In this document: one piece after another, positions 9,001 to 27,000 of the stretch | Layout of the letters: the number at the start of each line of letters is the position of its first letter | Position numbering within the stretch: position 1 is the first letter of the stretch | Program-made: the position numbers | From: Phycisphaerae bacterium | GTDB lineage: Bacteria > Planctomycetota > Phycisphaerae > UBA1845 > Fen-1342 | Length of the DNA: 64,000 bases | Reading direction: 5' to 3' | Assembly (NCBI GenBank): GCA_963675745.2 | Contig: CAXXWX010000026.1 | Span: 768,001 to 832,000, forward strand

Positions 9001-12000
9001 TGTCGTCATTGCTGAGCATGGTGTTCACGTCGGCGGGATTGGCGTTGAGCTATGGTCCCGATCTGCCCGCGGGGGCCACAACAATCGTCCTCGCCGGCGC
9101 GGTTTACGTGCTGGTGCTGATCGGCTCACGCGTGGCCCGGTCCTGGACAGCGCGCGTCCAGCGCCATGCGTAACCTCGTGCATACACGTCAAAGCACCTA
9201 CAATCCGCGCATGCATCATAGACGCACGATTCCACTGATCCTCCTGGTCGCGGTCGCGGTCGGCGGCTGCGACCGTCCCCCGCAAAAGCCGCAAACGCAC
9301 AACGGCCCCGTAACGGCCGACCAAAGCCCTGTAACGGCCGGCGCCCCGCCGGCCGCCGATGGTGCGCCACGCTGCGACACGCCAACACCCACCGGACACA
9401 CCGTCAAGCGCGCGCGCGAAGTCATGGGCACCTTCGCCGAGGTGACGGCGATCGCCCCGGACAAGGCGACCGCCGCTTCGGCCGTCGAGATCGCCTATCA
9501 GCGCATCGACGACGTCAACCGGTTGATGAGCGACTACGTTGACGACAGCGAGATCGGCCGGCTAAACCGCCTCGGCGCGGGCGAAGCGCTGGTAGTCTCG
9601 CCCGAGACTTTTCGATGTTTGCAGCGCGCGGCGGAGATCGCGGAGGCCAGCGGCGGGGCGTTTGACGCCACCTGCCGCCCACTGGTGCGGCTCTGGCGCC
9701 GCGCAGGCAAGGTACAACAGCTACCTTCAGCCGAGGACATCCGCGCCACGCTGCGGAAGGTCGGCTGGCAAAAAGTCAGGCTCGATCCAGCCACGCGCCG
9801 CGTGACCCTTGCTACCGAGGGGATGCAATTGGACGTCGGCGGCATCGCCAAGGGCTACGCCCTCGACCTGGCCGCCGAGGCGATGCTCTCCGCCGGCGCA
9901 ACCGGCGTACTGGTCAACATTGGCGGCGATTTGCGCGCGCTGGGCGGTCAGCCAGGAGATACGCCGTGGCGCATCGGCGTCAAGCACCCCTTCCAGACCG
10001 GGTTGTTCGGCAAGCTGGCCTTGAAGGACGGCGCCGTGGCCACGTCGGGGGTGCAACAGAGGTTCGTCGAGATTGACGGGCAACGCTACTCGCACGTGAT
10101 TGACCCGCGCACCGGGCAGCCGGCGGCCGAAGCCCCCAGCGTAACGGTCATCGCTCCTGACGGGATCACCGCCGATGCCTGGGCGACGGCGTTTAGCGTT
10201 CTGCCGGTGGCTGAGGCCCGTGAACTGGCTCAGCGCCTCGATGGTATTGAAGTGATGTGGATCTCAGGCACGGCCGCCGCGCCGATCGTCACACAGACAA
10301 GCGGTTTTGCCGCCTACGTCATCGAGTAGCGTCCGCCGCTACTTGAGATGTAGCGCCACTCGTCATGCGTAGCTGTGTACGCTGGCGATATAGAAATTCA
10401 CGAAGAACCAGTTGAAGGCCATCATCACACAGCCGGCGATCGAAAGCCATGCGGTCCACAAGCCTCGGTTGCGCACGACGAAGCGCACGTGCAGCAGAAT
10501 CGCGTACACGAGCCACGTGTTCAGCGCGAAGACTTCCTTTGGATCCCAGCCCCAGGGCCGACCCCACGAGTAGTCGGCCCACCACGCGCCCAGGATAATC
10601 CCGCCGACGAAGAGCAACAGAAAGACCATGTTGAGGATGATCAGATGCGCCCAGTCAAAATCGTTGAGCCACTGAGGCAGTGACTGGTCAGCTTCATCGC
10701 CCGGCGTGGCACCCGCCAGAATCGGACGCTGCTGCACAAACCCCAGCCCCATGCCGAGCCCGCTGCCGTCGTCGAGCCCCGTCCCCGCCTGTCGCTGAAA
10801 CTTGCGCCCGAGCATCACCGCGTAATACCCGATCAGGTAGATCACGGCGATGACGGCCGCCAGGTAGACCAGCGCGTAGGCCGCGATAATCATGACCGTG
10901 TGCAGCCGCAGTTGAATGTCGTCGAGAATGGCCGGGATGGTCCCGAGTTCGGCGCCGGGCAGCACGAAGCTGCCCATGACCAGGCCGAGAAAACCGGTTG
11001 CCGCCGCGGCGACCAGCAGGATGCGTGTCCGCTGGAAGATCTCGATCAAAAGGGCCACCGCGATGCCCATCCACGCCGACGCGACGACCGCCTCGAACAT
11101 GTTCGCGACGGGAATGCGCCCCAGAATGCTCCAGCGCAGCCCCACTCCATAGGCGTGGATCGACAGTGCGACGAGCATCAGCGCAAACGCCGTGCCCCAC
11201 GCCCAACGCCAGCGTGTTACCAGCGCGGGCAGCGCAAACAGCAGCGCCAGAAAGTACACCAGCCACCCCCAGGTGAATTTGCCGAACGAGTAGTACCGCG
11301 CCTCGGCCGCGCGTTGAGCGACGGACGGATACACTCCCGGCCCGGCCAACGTGGGCAGGAAAGCCGCCAGGCGATCCAGGTATTTTTGCGTGCCTGCCGC
11401 ATCACCGCCCAGCCAGGCCTTCTTGAGCAGTTTCCAGTCAACGGTTATGCGCAGCGCGTCGTCGGCGCTGAACTCCGGCATCGGGCTCATCGCGTGCGGC
11501 GAGATGGTGGCCCGCGTCAACCCGAGCTGCGCCATCTGTTCAAGCGTCAGATTGCCTTCGACCTGACCGGCGGTCCCCCACGGCGCGACGTCGTCACCGC
11601 CGGGCTGGGGCACGAAAGTCAGGAATTGGTCGAGACGCTGGGCGATGGCCTGGGCGCCGCGCACGCGGTTCAGCGCGCTGCGCATGATGTTGTGCGTCTC
11701 CATTTCGCGAATCTGCGCATTGAGACGCTCGTCATCGAATTCGCGGGGTGTGAAGTGGCGGCTTTCGAGCAGCTCCGCGCGCCGCTCGGCATCAAGGTGC
11801 CCCGCCAGCCGCATGCGCACGGCTTTCTCGCGGACCTTGATCAGCGGCTCGTCGGCATATGCGTCGCGGTTGAACTCCCATTCGAGCAGAGACGCCACCG
11901 GGCTCAGGCCGGGCAGATGCTCGCGCCCGGTCATCGCGGCGAACGACTCGCGCGCGAACGAATCCAGCGTCTTGTAGCGCCCGCGATCCTGCACCGCGAT

Positions 12001-24000: not shown

Positions 24001-27000
24001 ACCATCGGCCCCCAGGCGCGTGGCTGCACAATCTGTCACTTCGAATGGGTGCGGCCGCTGGTGAACGGGCAATCCACGCCACTGGCAGACGTACCGCCGA
24101 ACCCACCCGAGCACCCGTGGGTCAGCCGCGCCGAACAATGCCTGAGCTGCCATGACGGCTCTGTCGGCGACGCGCGCCGCCGCGTCTGGGTCGAGCACGG
24201 ACACCGCGTCGGCATCGAGCCCCCCGACAGCATAACGATCCCCGCAGACATGCCGCTGGCCAACGGGAAGCTCGCCTGCCGCACGTGCCATTCGGCCCAC
24301 AGCTCATCGGAGGAACGAACCACGATCGAGGGAATCGTCTTTCTACGCACCGACGAATCGCCCGCCGAATTGTGCAGCAAGTGCCATACGAGTTTCACGG
24401 GAGACGTTTCGGCCGGCATGCACCCGCTGGTCAAGATGCCATTCGAATTGCCCGCGGACCTGGTACACATCGATAGCCCGGAGACACGTTCGCAAATAAC
24501 GTGCCTCGGCTGCCACACGGGCCACGGCGGCGTCCATGATGACCTGCTCGTGCTCAATCCGAACTCCAACGATCTATGCCTGGCCTGCCATCAGAAGCTC
24601 ACGCCCGATCTCTTTGGCCCCGATGTCGTTGGTCGGCACGGACACGCCGTGCGGCTCACCGCCGAGCAGGTCGCGGTTGCTGGTGAGTTAGGCACGCGGC
24701 GTGGTCCTGGCGACGAGCTACTCTGCACGACGTGCCACGTTTCACATAACGCACCAACCGAACACAACCTCCTCGCATTTGATCTCGCCCAGCGCGACGC
24801 ATGCGCCGAATGTCACGTCGAGCAGAATGGTGTGATCGACTCGCCGCACGACATGCGAACCAGCGAACCCGGTGCGGTGGAAGTCGCCGGCGCGCGCGTT
24901 GAATCTTCCGGCGCCTGCGCCGGCTGCCACACCGCCCATCACGCGGGTATCGAGCCGAATCCCACGATCGACGACCCGCGCGGCCTCTGCATGAACTGCC
25001 ACGCCGCCGGGCGCATGGCTGGTGACAGCACACTCGGCCCCCACAATCACCCTGAAAGCGTGTGTACCGATTGCCACGACCCCCACGCCACCGGGTTTGG
25101 GAACTTCCTCACGGCGCGCCCCAGTGAGCGCTGCATCGAGTGCCACGCCGACTATGCCGGCGTGGTCAGCGGTCCCCATGATGTGTCCAACCGCGCGCCC
25201 GCCTGGCCAGCGAGTTCGGTGCAGGCCGGCGACACCTGCCTGGCCTGTCATCGACCGCACGGTGACGCGGCGCAGGGCATGTTCCGCGCCGGGCTGGCCG
25301 AGGATAAGTCGGGTGTGGACGCCGCCTGTCTCGCCTGTCACGCGGCCGCCACGCCGGGCCACGCCAGCGGCATCGCGCTGCTGCACCCGCGTGAAGTCCG
25401 CGCCCTGCACAGCACGCGCGAATTGCCATTCGCCACAGGAAATGACGGCAAGCCACGCGTCGCCTGCAACACCTGTCATGATCCGCATCGCGCTGACGCC
25501 GACACGTCCCTCCTGCGCGTGCGTGACGACCAGACCCTTGAAGACATGTGCCTCACGTGCCATGCCGAACGCGTCAACGTCCACATGATCGGTCATGCGG
25601 AGGATTCGATGCGCCGCGCCGGCTTCGCGGTCGGCGGGTGCCAGCCCTGCCACCTGACGCATGGCGAGCACGACCAGGTCGAGCCGCACATCATGTGGCC
25701 CAAGGCCCTGTCGCAGTTCGAAGGGGCCGAGAACACGCCAATCGCCGACCACTATTGCGTCTCGTGTCACCGCACGGGCGGGCCGGTGGCCCCGCCGGCG
25801 ATCGCTTCACATCCGGAAGTGGAGATGTTCAACCCCGAGCAGCCAGACTCCCCGGGCTTTCTGCCGTTGTTCAACGAGAACGGCGAGGTCGACCCGGCTG
25901 GCCACATCTCCTGTCGCACGTGCCACCTGACGCATGGACGCAGTGAGCCGGCCCCGCTCGCCCAGTCACTTGCGGACACGGCCGATCGTGAACGCCGCGC
26001 TCGTGCGTGGCACGTCCGTACGCTGGGACCGGCCAATGTCTGCACGACGTGTCATGGTTTTGACGCGCTGCGCCGTTTCATGTATTTCCATGATGCGACT
26101 CGACGGGGCGGGCCGATCGAGAGCCGCTGAAACACGCCCCGGCCACTGCGGGCTCATGGATTCGGCTGTGTTCCCCGCTACAATCTTCAGAAATCGAGAC
26201 AATCCCGCCGAAGCAACGGAGAGCCAGACGAATGCCGTCAAACAACCGCATGCCATTACTTCTTTGCCTGATCGTCGCTGGAGTTGTCGCATTCACAGGG
26301 TGCGACAAGGGTTCGCGCGAGGCGGCGCAGCCGGCCGCATCTTCCGCGGCCGACGACCAGCCCAGCGCCGATGAACTGTCCGACGTCCGCGAACTGGTCC
26401 AGAAAGAGGCTACCGAACGGCGGTCAGCCGCGCCCGGCGCGATGGACGGCATCCCCGCGGGACATCCACCGATCGACCAGCAGACCACCCGGCAGCGGCC
26501 GCCGCGACCGGCCGAGGCGACCGGCATCAAGTACGTCGCCCCGGAGTCATGGACCAAGGAAACGCCGGCTTCCTCGATGCGCGCCGATCAATACAGCTTG
26601 CCACGCGCCGAAGGTGACGAGGAAGACGGTGAGCTGGCGATCTTCAAATTCGCGGCCGGATCAGGCGGCGCCATCGACGCCAATATCTCCCGCTGGCGCA
26701 AGCAGTTCTCCACCGCCGACGGCCAACCATTGCCGGATGACAAAGCGCTCCCCACGAAGACCGAGGTTAACGGCCTCGAGGTCACCTTGATCGACATCGA
26801 CGGACGCTACCAGGCAACCAGCATGATGTTCGGCGGTGCGCCGCCCGCCGCCAAGGACAATTACCGCATGCTCGGCGCGCTGGTTGATACTCCCGTCGGA
26901 TTGTGGGTCTTCAAAGCAGTCGGTCCCGCCGCCACGATGGCCAAACATGAAGAGAGTTTCAGCCAGTTCGTGCAGTCAGTGGAAACCGAGTAACGCCGGT

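What a model noticed while it worked through the whole genome (the two positions that open the first line are those of the whole stretch)
10363..26130. Haem auxotrophy in a multihaem-cytochrome-rich Phycisphaerae family
The genome encodes system II cytochrome c maturation (ccsA here, beside a cluster of 6- to 20-haem cytochromes), over 200 CXXCH sites, alternative complex III, aa3 and bd oxidases and KatG. It has no hemA, hemB, hemC, hemD or ferrochelatase. Most of the family is the same, so these bacteria must scavenge haem, often without any TonB receptor.
Evidence so far: No Pfam row for GlutR_N, ALAD, Porphobil_deam, HEM4, Ferrochelatase, CbiX or CbiK. Six-frame searches are negative for hemB, hemC, hemA and hemH, and tblastn with a congener's hem genes hits only aminotransferase paralogues. 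hemC is in 5 of 72 family genomes, ccsA in 67 of 72. hemB is in 3 of 24 family relatives but 13 of 16 other order genomes. The count is 231 CXXCH in 26 proteins, a few of them false. The congener's hem genes lie on four contigs, so one assembly gap cannot explain the loss. Search 99 listed nothing on this family.
(Added by a program. Inside this text positions count along the whole contig: contig position 768,001 is position 1 of the stretch shown here. "Call 12" and the like, gene names such as g00115 and contig names such as C1 are that model's own, and its searches are not shown. The text may have been shortened before it was handed on; [...] marks where a part breaks off. The agent that wrote the report below was given it as the finding of a first reader that could run no searches.)

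Follow-up and report, generated by a model that had tools for sequence, protein, structure and literature searches.

The report
Cytochrome-rich planctomycetes that cannot make haem
A large group of uncultured planctomycete bacteria builds respiratory proteins carrying dozens to hundreds of haem groups yet has no known way to make haem, so it probably takes haem from its neighbours, in some members without any recognised haem importer.

Summary
Confirmed, with corrections. The window holds an intact CcsB-CcsA haem exporter beside 8-, 8-, 6-, 2- and 20-haem cytochromes. The genome has about 230-270 CXXCH sites, including a 46-haem protein. No hemA, B, C, D, E, H, L, N, Y, chdC, ahbD or cysG orthologue was found. 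In the family, 64 of 72 genomes lack hemB, hemC, hemE and hemH; 68 of 72 keep ccsA. This bin alone is weaker evidence than claimed: it lacks ftsK, and a congener keeps all hem genes in one 10-kb cluster (gap risk about 12%). It is also the family's CXXCH extreme (median about 60), and 'aa3' is unproven. The trait is wider than claimed: many hemC-positive relatives carry only a sirohaem cassette, and two single-contig sister-family genomes lack every tested step. Conserved CcsBA histidines imply haem b must reach the cytoplasmic side. Yet one 99%-complete member shows no TonB receptor, HmuU-type permease or DppA. Haem auxotrophy with CcsBA is known (Bacteroides). New are the lineage, the scale and the missing importer. 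No earlier scan note covered it.

The parts
10363..12108 (-). ccsA, system II cytochrome c synthase subunit with WWD domain and three conserved haem-ligand histidines (H403, H540, H578)
   Evidence: PF01578 E=1e-26; TIGR03144 best hit, below its cut-off; these His in 21 of 21 family rows; coordinates
12153..13841 (-). ccsB/ResB-like partner with the transmembrane histidine H130
   Evidence: No Pfam hit at 0.001; an orthologue lies directly before ccsA or fused to it in most of 20 family loci; His in 20 of 20 rows
14104..15702 (-). 8-CXXCH cytochrome c, probable lipoprotein (Cytochrome_cB family)
15954..16601 (-). PAS-LuxR regulator between the two divergent units
   Evidence: PF00196 and PAS hits
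16898..19840 (+). 8-CXXCH cytochrome c fused to a cytochrome b561-type membrane domain (needs haem b and haem c)
   Evidence: PF01292; motifs
19936..21765 (+). 6-CXXCH cytochrome c fused to a cytochrome b561-type domain
   Evidence: PF01292; motifs
21758..22939 (+). 2-CXXCH membrane protein of no named family
   Evidence: also in the same cluster of G020
23026..26130 (+). 20-CXXCH cytochrome with N-terminal NHL propeller (doubled-CXXCH type)
   Evidence: PF09699, PF01436; 20 motifs; orthologue in G020
26232..26993 (+). Lipoprotein with a GHPP motif, PsbP/DcrB-like; linked to ccsBA in other genomes; candidate haem or cytochrome chaperone (inference only)
   Evidence: Close to ccsA in G015, G020, G033 and L142; atlas leads under 0.9
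9166..10329 (+). ApbE flavin transferase, convergent neighbour; not shown to belong to the system
   Evidence: PF02424

Best explanation
Most of this Phycisphaerae family, and many members of two related families, cannot make haem b and take it ready-made from other cells. SHOWN in sequence: (1) every known route to haem b is missing; (2) the consumers are intact: CcsBA, multihaem cytochromes c, b-type cytochromes, ACIII, a haem-copper oxidase, cytochrome bd, KatG, the haem o synthase CtaB and the chaperone HemW. INFERRED: (3) the imported compound is haem b itself, because no chelatase, ChdC or AhbD was found to finish a precursor and CcsBA and CtaB need free vinyl groups; (4) it must reach the cytoplasmic side of the inner membrane, because CcsBA keeps both transmembrane histidines through which haem enters from that side; (5) the source is haem b from lysed or leaky neighbours, including haem-making relatives; (6) uptake is either membrane partition without a dedicated carrier or an unrecognised carrier, with the single BtuCDF-like ABC system a possible helper where present. 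A minority keep or regained a compact eight-gene classical pathway headed by a ferrochelatase-glutamyl-tRNA-reductase fusion. Others hold only a sirohaem cassette for sulfite assimilation.
For: Family: hemC 5, hemB 6, hemH 5 of 72, hemE 3 of 71; the union is 8 genomes, so 64 of 72 have none, and 61 of those 64 have ccsA. Order sample of 251: ccsA in f1 67/71, f2 48/49, f7 71/73; ferrochelatase 5/71, 8/49 (two of them weak hits, E>=1e-6), 38/73; hemE 3/71, 4/49, 37/73; AhbD-like hits above 400 bits only in f3, f4, f6, f9, f10 and three f7 genomes. The same searches find hemC in f6 35/35 and ferrochelatase in f6 28/35, so they work. Single-contig genomes G023 (f1), G096 and G107 (f2) have ccsA and are in none of the hit lists for hemC, hemH, hemE or AhbD; G096 and G107 have 307 and 348 CXXCH-pattern hits against 146 and 140 in the control. 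All four CcsBA histidines conserved; entry from the cytoplasmic side per PMC10663686 (passages). HemW above cut-off and ctaB present. Contigs with a G040-type hem cluster occur in the runs that hold this genome, at other depths. The order is common in autotroph enrichments (PMC11266412, passages).
Against: No growth, haem or expression data. No importer identified. This bin is 91% complete, lacks ftsK, and both well-assembled congeners are full prototrophs, one with a single 10-kb cluster. Some members have few CXXCH sites (G023, G024, G067, G028 at or below background), so demand varies widely. HMM and BLAST searches cannot see a non-homologous pathway. Kin are not independent observations.
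Confidence: 0.8

Rival explanations
1. Same genetic loss, but haem is optional: the cells ferment or use haem-free routes and mature their cytochromes only when haem is around, as lactic acid bacteria do. This changes 'must scavenge' to 'can scavenge'. It overlaps with the best explanation.
For: Several hem-negative members have almost no excess CXXCH sites (G023, G024, G067, G028). No known importer in G020. G000 has a NiFe hydrogenase and corrinoid methyltransferases. Lactic acid bacteria precedent stated in PMC8351635 (section 11 part 1).
Against: ccsA is kept in 61 of 64 hem-negative genomes with invariant ligands. In G000 the only quinol-oxidising complexes I identified (ACIII, bd) need haem, and at least 22 reading frames are multihaem.
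Confidence: 0.3
2. For this bin only: the hem cluster exists but lies in the unassembled 9% of the genome. The family-wide pattern would stand.
For: ftsK missing. G040, G061, G208 and G210 keep the whole pathway in one cluster of about 10 kb. G040 and G041, the two well-assembled congeners, are prototrophs. Collinear hem-cluster contigs exist in runs X1 and X2 that hold this genome.
Against: Those contigs have depth 134/210.5 and 6.0/11.7 in X1/X2. The contig matching G000 letter for letter at the flanking ABC genes has 11.2/6.5, the opposite ratio (one anchor only, and contig depth is a rough measure). The G000 orthologues of the genes flanking the hem genes in G040 and G041 lie inside long contigs with no hem gene beside them.
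Confidence: 0.12
3. They salvage a precursor (protoporphyrin, coproporphyrin, coprohaem or sirohaem) and finish it with a divergent enzyme, for instance the conserved AhbD/NirJ-related radical-SAM protein.
For: A radical-SAM/SPASM protein scores 207-225 bits on the AhbD model in at least 17 of 71 family genomes and is 67-76% identical to a partial copy in G000. G003 has a lone ferrochelatase.
Against: AhbD-like proteins of the same order score 400-450 bits and share a WETT..CNL.C.HCR motif and HYYR motif that this protein lacks; it has a long N-terminal extension and no haem-gene neighbours. It also occurs in prototrophs G061 and G062. No ChdC, CbiX or CobA in G000 and no ChdC in 5 of 5 sirohaem-cassette genomes.
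Confidence: 0.05
4. An unknown, non-homologous pathway makes haem de novo.
For: Very high haem demand with no importer found; Kim et al. name unknown pathways as a formal possibility.
Against: All nine steps would need replacing at once; to my knowledge (recalled) no tetrapyrrole route without ALA dehydratase and PBG deaminase is known. Members that do make haem use ordinary hem genes.
Confidence: 0.03

Closest known systems
Bacteroides thetaiotaomicron / Bacteroidales haem auxotrophs with CcsBA
   Same: System II CcsBA without early haem synthesis: in the control set B. thetaiotaomicron rings for ccsA and bd but not hemB, hemC or ferrochelatase. Called a haem auxotroph in PMC12670364 (passage); its CcsBA is discussed in PMC10663686 (passages).
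   Different: Bacteroides has TonB-dependent receptors (control) and lives in haem-rich hosts; it has few c-type cytochromes (recalled). Here up to about 250 haem c sites, free-living, and 48 of 72 genomes show no TonB receptor.
Free-living haem auxotrophs: acI Actinobacteria, SAR406, Chloroflexota and others (Kim et al., bioRxiv 10.1101/2021.01.11.426183)
   Same: Clade-wide loss of the common pathway in respiring, mostly uncultured, free-living cells; haem proposed as growth factor (parts 1-3 of 4 read).
   Different: acI is streamlined and has Dpp or HemTUV candidates. These genomes are about 3-6 Mb, multihaem-rich, and G020 shows neither system. The main text has no mention of Planctomycetota or cytochrome c; its supplementary genome table was not visible.
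Sediment haem auxotrophs without known receptors (PMC11139205)
   Same: Reports no recognised haem receptor in 60% of 192 environmental auxotroph genomes and suggests unknown receptors (passages).
   Different: Planctomycetes are not named in the text. Its Table S9 lists 7 UBA1845 genomes: one scored 0.2, four 0.6-0.7 (above its 0.5 auxotroph line), two 1.0. Scores of 0.6-0.7 are what a sirohaem-only cassette would give (my inference; accessions not mapped to my genomes).
Archaea with Ccm maturation but no AhbABCD (PMC8351635)
   Same: Cytochrome c maturation genes without haem synthesis read as auxotrophy (abstract and section 11 part 1).
   Different: System I, isolated genomes, no large multihaem repertoire described in what I read.
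HemH-HemQ (CpfC-ChdC) fusion of Cutibacterium acnes
   Same: A ferrochelatase fused to another haem-pathway enzyme (passages in PMC13564367 and PMC8529089).
   Different: The prototrophs here fuse ferrochelatase to glutamyl-tRNA reductase, the last and first steps.

Membership tests
System II cytochrome c maturation (CcsBA) | CcsA with WWD domain | tested here: met
   WADYSWGRPWGWDPKE at window 10534-10581; motif in 21 of 21 rows
System II cytochrome c maturation (CcsBA) | Two periplasmic His and two transmembrane His (one in CcsA, one in CcsB) | tested here: met
   Three CcsA columns 21 of 21, one CcsB column 20 of 20. Roles assigned from motif position (recalled) and PMC10663686
System II cytochrome c maturation (CcsBA) | Adjacent ccsB/resB gene | tested here: inconclusive
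   Position, size and conserved His fit, but no Pfam or NCBIfam ResB hit
Haem auxotroph | No common pathway (hemB, hemC, hemD) | tested here: met
   65 of 72 family genomes have neither hemB nor hemC; hemD tested in G000 only
Haem auxotroph | No terminal route (HemH, ChdC, AhbD) | tested here: met
   G000. Family: hemH 5 of 72, no AhbD-grade hit; ChdC tested only in G000 and 5 f2/f7 genomes
Haem auxotroph | Intact haemoproteins | tested here: met
Haem auxotroph | Growth or haemoprotein activity depends on added haem | not testable with these tools
   Needs a culture or enrichment
TonB receptor + HmuTUV-type haem uptake | Haem-type TonB-dependent receptor | tested here: not met
   G000's single receptor is closest to the TOL_0244 family and sits with a sensor kinase and an ABC_sub_bind protein; 48 of 72 genomes have none
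TonB receptor + HmuTUV-type haem uptake | FecCD-type permease, ATPase and haem-binding periplasmic protein | tested here: inconclusive
   One scattered set in G000 (C15:473477, C6:101924-103685), below all equivalog cut-offs. The binding protein looks BtuF-like and lacks the HmuT/ShuT tyrosine motif as I recall it; G000 also has corrinoid proteins but no cobalamin methyltransferases. Strong permease in 63 of 72, none in 8 including G020
Dpp-type haem uptake | DppA-type binding protein (PF00496) | tested here: not met
   0 in G000, G020, G040; 1 each in G023, G033 (5 genomes tested)
aa3-type cytochrome c oxidase | Haem a synthase CtaA besides CtaB | tested here: not met
   coxABC and ctaB present; no PF02628 hit in this 91%-complete bin
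AhbD (radical-SAM haem b synthase), for the conserved family rSAM protein | AhbD-grade score and motifs | tested here: not met
   207-225 bits against 400-450 for AhbD-like proteins of the same order; motifs differ
GTDB family Fen-1342, order UBA1845 | Taxonomic placement | tested here: inconclusive
   Closest named CcsA (63%) is in a record titled 'Phycisphaerales bacterium isolate fen_1342'; PMC11266412 puts FEN-1342 in UBA1845 and gives 68% GC, against 63.5% here. No marker tree was built

The most novel reading that the evidence does not exclude
Haem dependence is the normal state across three families of this uncultured order, partly hidden from pathway-completeness surveys by sirohaem-only cassettes. 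These cells supply tens to hundreds of haem c sites through a high-capacity haem b import route that is not TonB/HmuTUV and not Dpp, so an undescribed envelope haem-uptake mechanism exists in planctomycetes. That would help explain why they persist in cultures of haem-rich autotrophs and resist isolation.
Probability: 0.4. Interest if true: 0.8.

Novelty: new variant of a known kind. Interest (0 to 1): 0.6.

Why it matters
Multihaem cytochromes are usually taken to go with strong haem synthesis. Here a lineage with some very large predicted cytochromes (20, 23 and 46 haems in one genome) depends on others for the cofactor. That makes haem a traded resource in sludge, sediment and enrichment communities, and means that MAG-based claims of metal or nitrogen respiration in this order carry a hidden condition. 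It gives a cheap, direct cultivation test (add haemin) for a group with no isolate named in the class review I read, and names genomes in which an unknown haem importer can be sought. It also shows that hemB/hemC presence is a poor proxy for haem synthesis.

Tried and rejected
Importer candidates, none supported. (a) ccsBA neighbourhoods in 20 family genomes show no conserved transporter. (b) The TonB receptor of G000 is sensor-linked. (c) Two lipoproteins before the FecCD permease are CsgG/LpoB-like leads only. (d) A FadL-type barrel sits among PAS sensors. (e) The 284-aa lipoprotein after katG folds as an 8-stranded barrel (pLDDT 94) with best matches at Z 9.4 to unrelated small barrels and no Foldseek hit, and is not beside katG in three other genomes; a single-sequence fold of it failed. 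(f) No cobalamin riboswitch near the uptake genes scanned; the permease locus was not scanned. Periplasmic haem capture by an altered CcsBA was rejected because the transmembrane histidines are intact. The 189-bit URO-D hit is MtaA-like, not HemE; the only tetrapyrrole-methylase hit is YabN-like. Expression: no RNA holder listed, which is no evidence either way. In one search I saw no hem-cluster contig at this genome's depth, but only the top rows are shown and few 100-base windows of relatives reach 80% identity (0-7%), so this blank proves nothing. A metagenome scan with the fusion gave 4 loci, none near-identical to G000. The HemC tree groups G040, G041 and G061 with f7's G210 (98/94) but without a species tree cannot separate retention from re-acquisition. 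Literature: searches found no paper describing this loss in Phycisphaerae or the HemH-HemA fusion; the library lacks most subscription papers. The PNAS version of Kim et al. was not held, its supplements were not visible, and 7 of 19 supplements of PMC11139205 were not searched. Scan notes: nothing relevant.

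
Full report
WHAT IS IN THE WINDOW. The window is G000:C26:768001-832000 of a 5.2-Mb bin in 28 contigs, 91.4% complete and 6.1% contaminated. At 10363-12108(-) lies ccsA with an intact WWD motif, preceded by a ResB-like ccsB at 12153-13841(-). Five cytochrome genes follow with 8, 8, 6, 2 and 20 CXXCH motifs, 44 in all against 0.13 after shuffling. Two are fused to cytochrome b561-type domains. Genome-wide I count 226 motifs in 22 frames with at least four, or 254 in 55 genes from my own gene caller, some of them not cytochromes. One frame has 46 motifs in near-identical 195-residue repeats. 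ACIII, coxABC with ctaB, HemW, cytochrome bd and KatG are present. CtaA was not found, so the oxidase may carry haem o rather than haem a.

WHAT IS MISSING. Library models for HemB, HemC, ferrochelatase, ChdC, HemE and AhbD give no orthologue in G000. HMMs built from relatives' own HemH, HemA, HemB, HemC, HemD, CobA, CbiX and sulfite reductase give no hit in six frames read through stops. The residual HemE, HemN and HemL hits are an MtaA-type methyltransferase, HemW and another aminotransferase; HemY gave only weak FAD-site hits. The one tetrapyrrole-methylase hit is YabN-like, so sirohaem and cobalamin synthesis are missing too.

IS IT A GAP? For this bin, possibly. ftsK is missing. That is true of G041, but G040 has hemH-hemA, hemN, hemE, hemY, hemB, hemD, hemC and hemL in one 10-kb cluster, and G061, G208 and G210 share that order. 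One lost contig could hide it. Laying public contigs on G040's cluster showed collinear hem-cluster contigs in the two runs that hold this genome, at depth 134/210.5 and 6.0/11.7. The contig that carries G000's own letters at the flanking ABC genes has depth 11.2/6.5. So the clusters probably belong to co-occurring relatives, on one anchor and a rough measure. I put the gap risk near 12%.

THE FAMILY SETTLES THE MAIN POINT. Of 72 genomes, hemC is in 5, hemB in 6, ferrochelatase in 5 and hemE in 3. Together these are 8 genomes; 64 of 72, and 41 of the 46 that are at least 90% complete and at most 5% contaminated, have none. ccsA is in 68 of 72 and in 61 of the 64. The negatives include G023 (1 contig), G015 and G037 (4), G024 (6) and G071 (7). 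Of the 8 positives, G040 and G061 have the whole pathway in one cluster; G041 has it dispersed; G062 has hemB and the hemH-hemA fusion; G063 has only a sirohaem cassette; G039 has a divergent hemA-hemC-cobA on a 3.5-kb contig; G003 has a lone hemH; G058 a cut hemB. Cytochrome load varies. G000 has the highest CXXCH-pattern excess of the 72. After scaling the control by a factor measured in G000 alone, the median is about 63, 40 genomes reach 50 and 24 reach 100, and some are at background.

THE TRAIT IS WIDER THAN STATED. In 251 genomes of the order hemC looks common outside the family (f2 23/49, f7 64/73, f6 35/35). But of 20 such loci that I read, 6 of 6 in f2, 4 of 10 in f7 and 1 in f5 are a sulfite-reductase cassette (sir, hemA, cbiX, hemC, cobA-hemD, hemB, mostly hemL) that ends at sirohaem. 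Ferrochelatase is in f2 8/49 (two of them weak) and f7 38/73, hemE in 4/49 and 37/73. AhbD-like hits above 400 bits are confined to f3, f4, f6, f9, f10 and three f7 genomes. ChdC is missing from 5 of 5 cassette genomes. ccsA is in f2 48/49 and f7 71/73. Two single-contig f2 genomes, G096 and G107 (96-97% complete), have a fused CcsBA with all ligands, twice the control number of CXXCH patterns, and appear in none of the hemC, hemH, hemE or AhbD hit lists. They are the cleanest cases.

HOW IT MOST LIKELY WORKS. Shown: the consumers are intact and synthesis is gone. CcsBA keeps three CcsA histidines in 21 of 21 rows and the CcsB histidine in 20 of 20 (three rows are prototrophs). Haem enters CcsBA from the cytoplasmic side through these transmembrane histidines (PMC10663686, passages). 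Inferred: haem b must cross both membranes, is handed on perhaps by HemW, and is then exported again for attachment, or prenylated by CtaB. It has to be haem b, since no finishing enzyme was found and covalently bound haem c has no free vinyl groups (established chemistry, recalled). Donors would be lysed or leaky neighbours. The class review notes this order in autotroph enrichments and calls that curious; it never mentions haem (PMC11266412, passages). The importer is unresolved. 48 of 72 genomes show no TonB receptor and G000's is sensor-linked. A FecCD-type permease is in 63 of 72, but G000's set looks like a B12 importer and G000 needs B12. G020 (99% complete, 40 contigs) has a 20-haem cluster beside ccsBA and shows no TonB receptor, no such permease and no DppA. 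Either haem partitions through membranes unaided or the carrier is of an unrecognised kind.

RIVALS. Optional rather than obligate haem use (0.3, overlapping with the main reading); a gap in this bin (0.12); precursor salvage by a conserved AhbD-related radical-SAM protein, which fails on score and motifs (0.05); an unknown de novo pathway (0.03).

COMPARISON WITH WHAT IS KNOWN. Haem auxotrophy in free-living respirers is published and surveyed GTDB-wide (Kim et al., bioRxiv 10.1101/2021.01.11.426183, parts 1-3 of 4; no mention of Planctomycetota in the main text; supplements not visible). Missing receptors in environmental auxotrophs are published too (PMC11139205, passages); its Table S9 scores 7 UBA1845 genomes, one as an auxotroph and four at 0.6-0.7. 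CcsBA without haem synthesis is the state of B. thetaiotaomicron in the control set. So the kind is known. I found no paper stating it for this lineage or joining it to large multihaem repertoires (searches, in a library without most subscription journals). The family is probably GTDB Fen-1342 in order UBA1845, from one record title and the review; no marker tree was built.

SIDE FINDING. Prototrophs of this clade fuse ferrochelatase to glutamyl-tRNA reductase. All 120 listed homologues carry both Pfam domains, those with a taxon name are Phycisphaerae or Planctomycetota, and the catalytic-cysteine motif is in 116 of 116 full-length copies. Search 73 and passages of two reviews gave no mention of it.

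VERDICT. Real, family-wide and probably order-wide; a new variant of a known kind; interest 0.6. The open and testable part is how the haem gets in.

Noticed in passing
L012:2366-4705 (G040); also L015, L021, L024, L112, L113, L128: Ferrochelatase fused to glutamyl-tRNA reductase (last and first haem-pathway enzymes), about 770 aa, at least 120 homologues; reductase catalytic motif in 116 of 116. Could allow direct feedback control. Not found in the papers searched.
   Followed up: partly
L016, L114, L116, L120-L127, L129: Sirohaem-only cassette (sir, hemA, cbiX, hemC often fused to cbiX, cobA-hemD, hemB, mostly hemL) forming its own HemC clade (100/99); inflates haem-pathway completeness scores.
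   Followed up: yes
G000:C26:165465-170879 (L049:5466-10880): 46-CXXCH cytochrome of about 1800 aa built from near-identical 195-aa, 6-haem repeats, probable lipoprotein; repeat number not checked against reads.
   Followed up: partly
window 26232-26993: GHPP-motif lipoprotein, PsbP/DcrB-like, close to ccsA in G015, G020, G033 and L142; a possible overlooked system II accessory protein.
   Followed up: partly
G000:C12:52188-53042 (L162:3188-4039, P0121): 284-aa lipoprotein after katG with 1488 homologues, the top 120 at 83-94% identity, no Pfam family; confident 8-stranded barrel with conserved Asp-rich loop and two cysteines; function unexplained.
   Followed up: yes
G000:C15:484448-485284; L147-L151: Conserved AhbD/NirJ-related radical-SAM/SPASM protein with a long N-terminal extension, 67-76% identical across genera; broken by a frameshift and the contig end in G000. 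Not AhbD; function unknown.
   Followed up: partly
G000:C15:473477-475729; L050-L061: FecCD permease preceded by one or two CsgG/LpoB-like lipoproteins in most of 12 family loci; binding protein and ATPase lie elsewhere (C6:101924-103685).
   Followed up: partly
G000:C6:156945-163080 (L037): Hmc/Tmc-like membrane complex (HmcE-, HmcB-, HmcC-like with 6 haems) ending in a 23-haem cytochrome.
   Followed up: no
G000:C3:22417-31575 (L036): 11-, 8-, 8- and 4-haem cytochromes around a 649-aa probable beta-barrel, a possible porin-cytochrome conduit; the same block lies beside ccsBA in G037.
   Followed up: no
G000:C1/C14, C2/C22, C2/C16 contig ends: Duplicated overlaps of 8-17 kb at 98.7-99.9% identity, which explain part of the 6% contamination and duplicate one di-haem gene.
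   Followed up: no
L020 (G003:C6): Lone ferrochelatase beside hrcA on a 3-kb contig in a genome without hemB, hemC or hemE; porphyrin salvage or contamination.
   Followed up: no
window 33495-33680: 6S RNA on the minus strand (Rfam RF00013).
   Followed up: no
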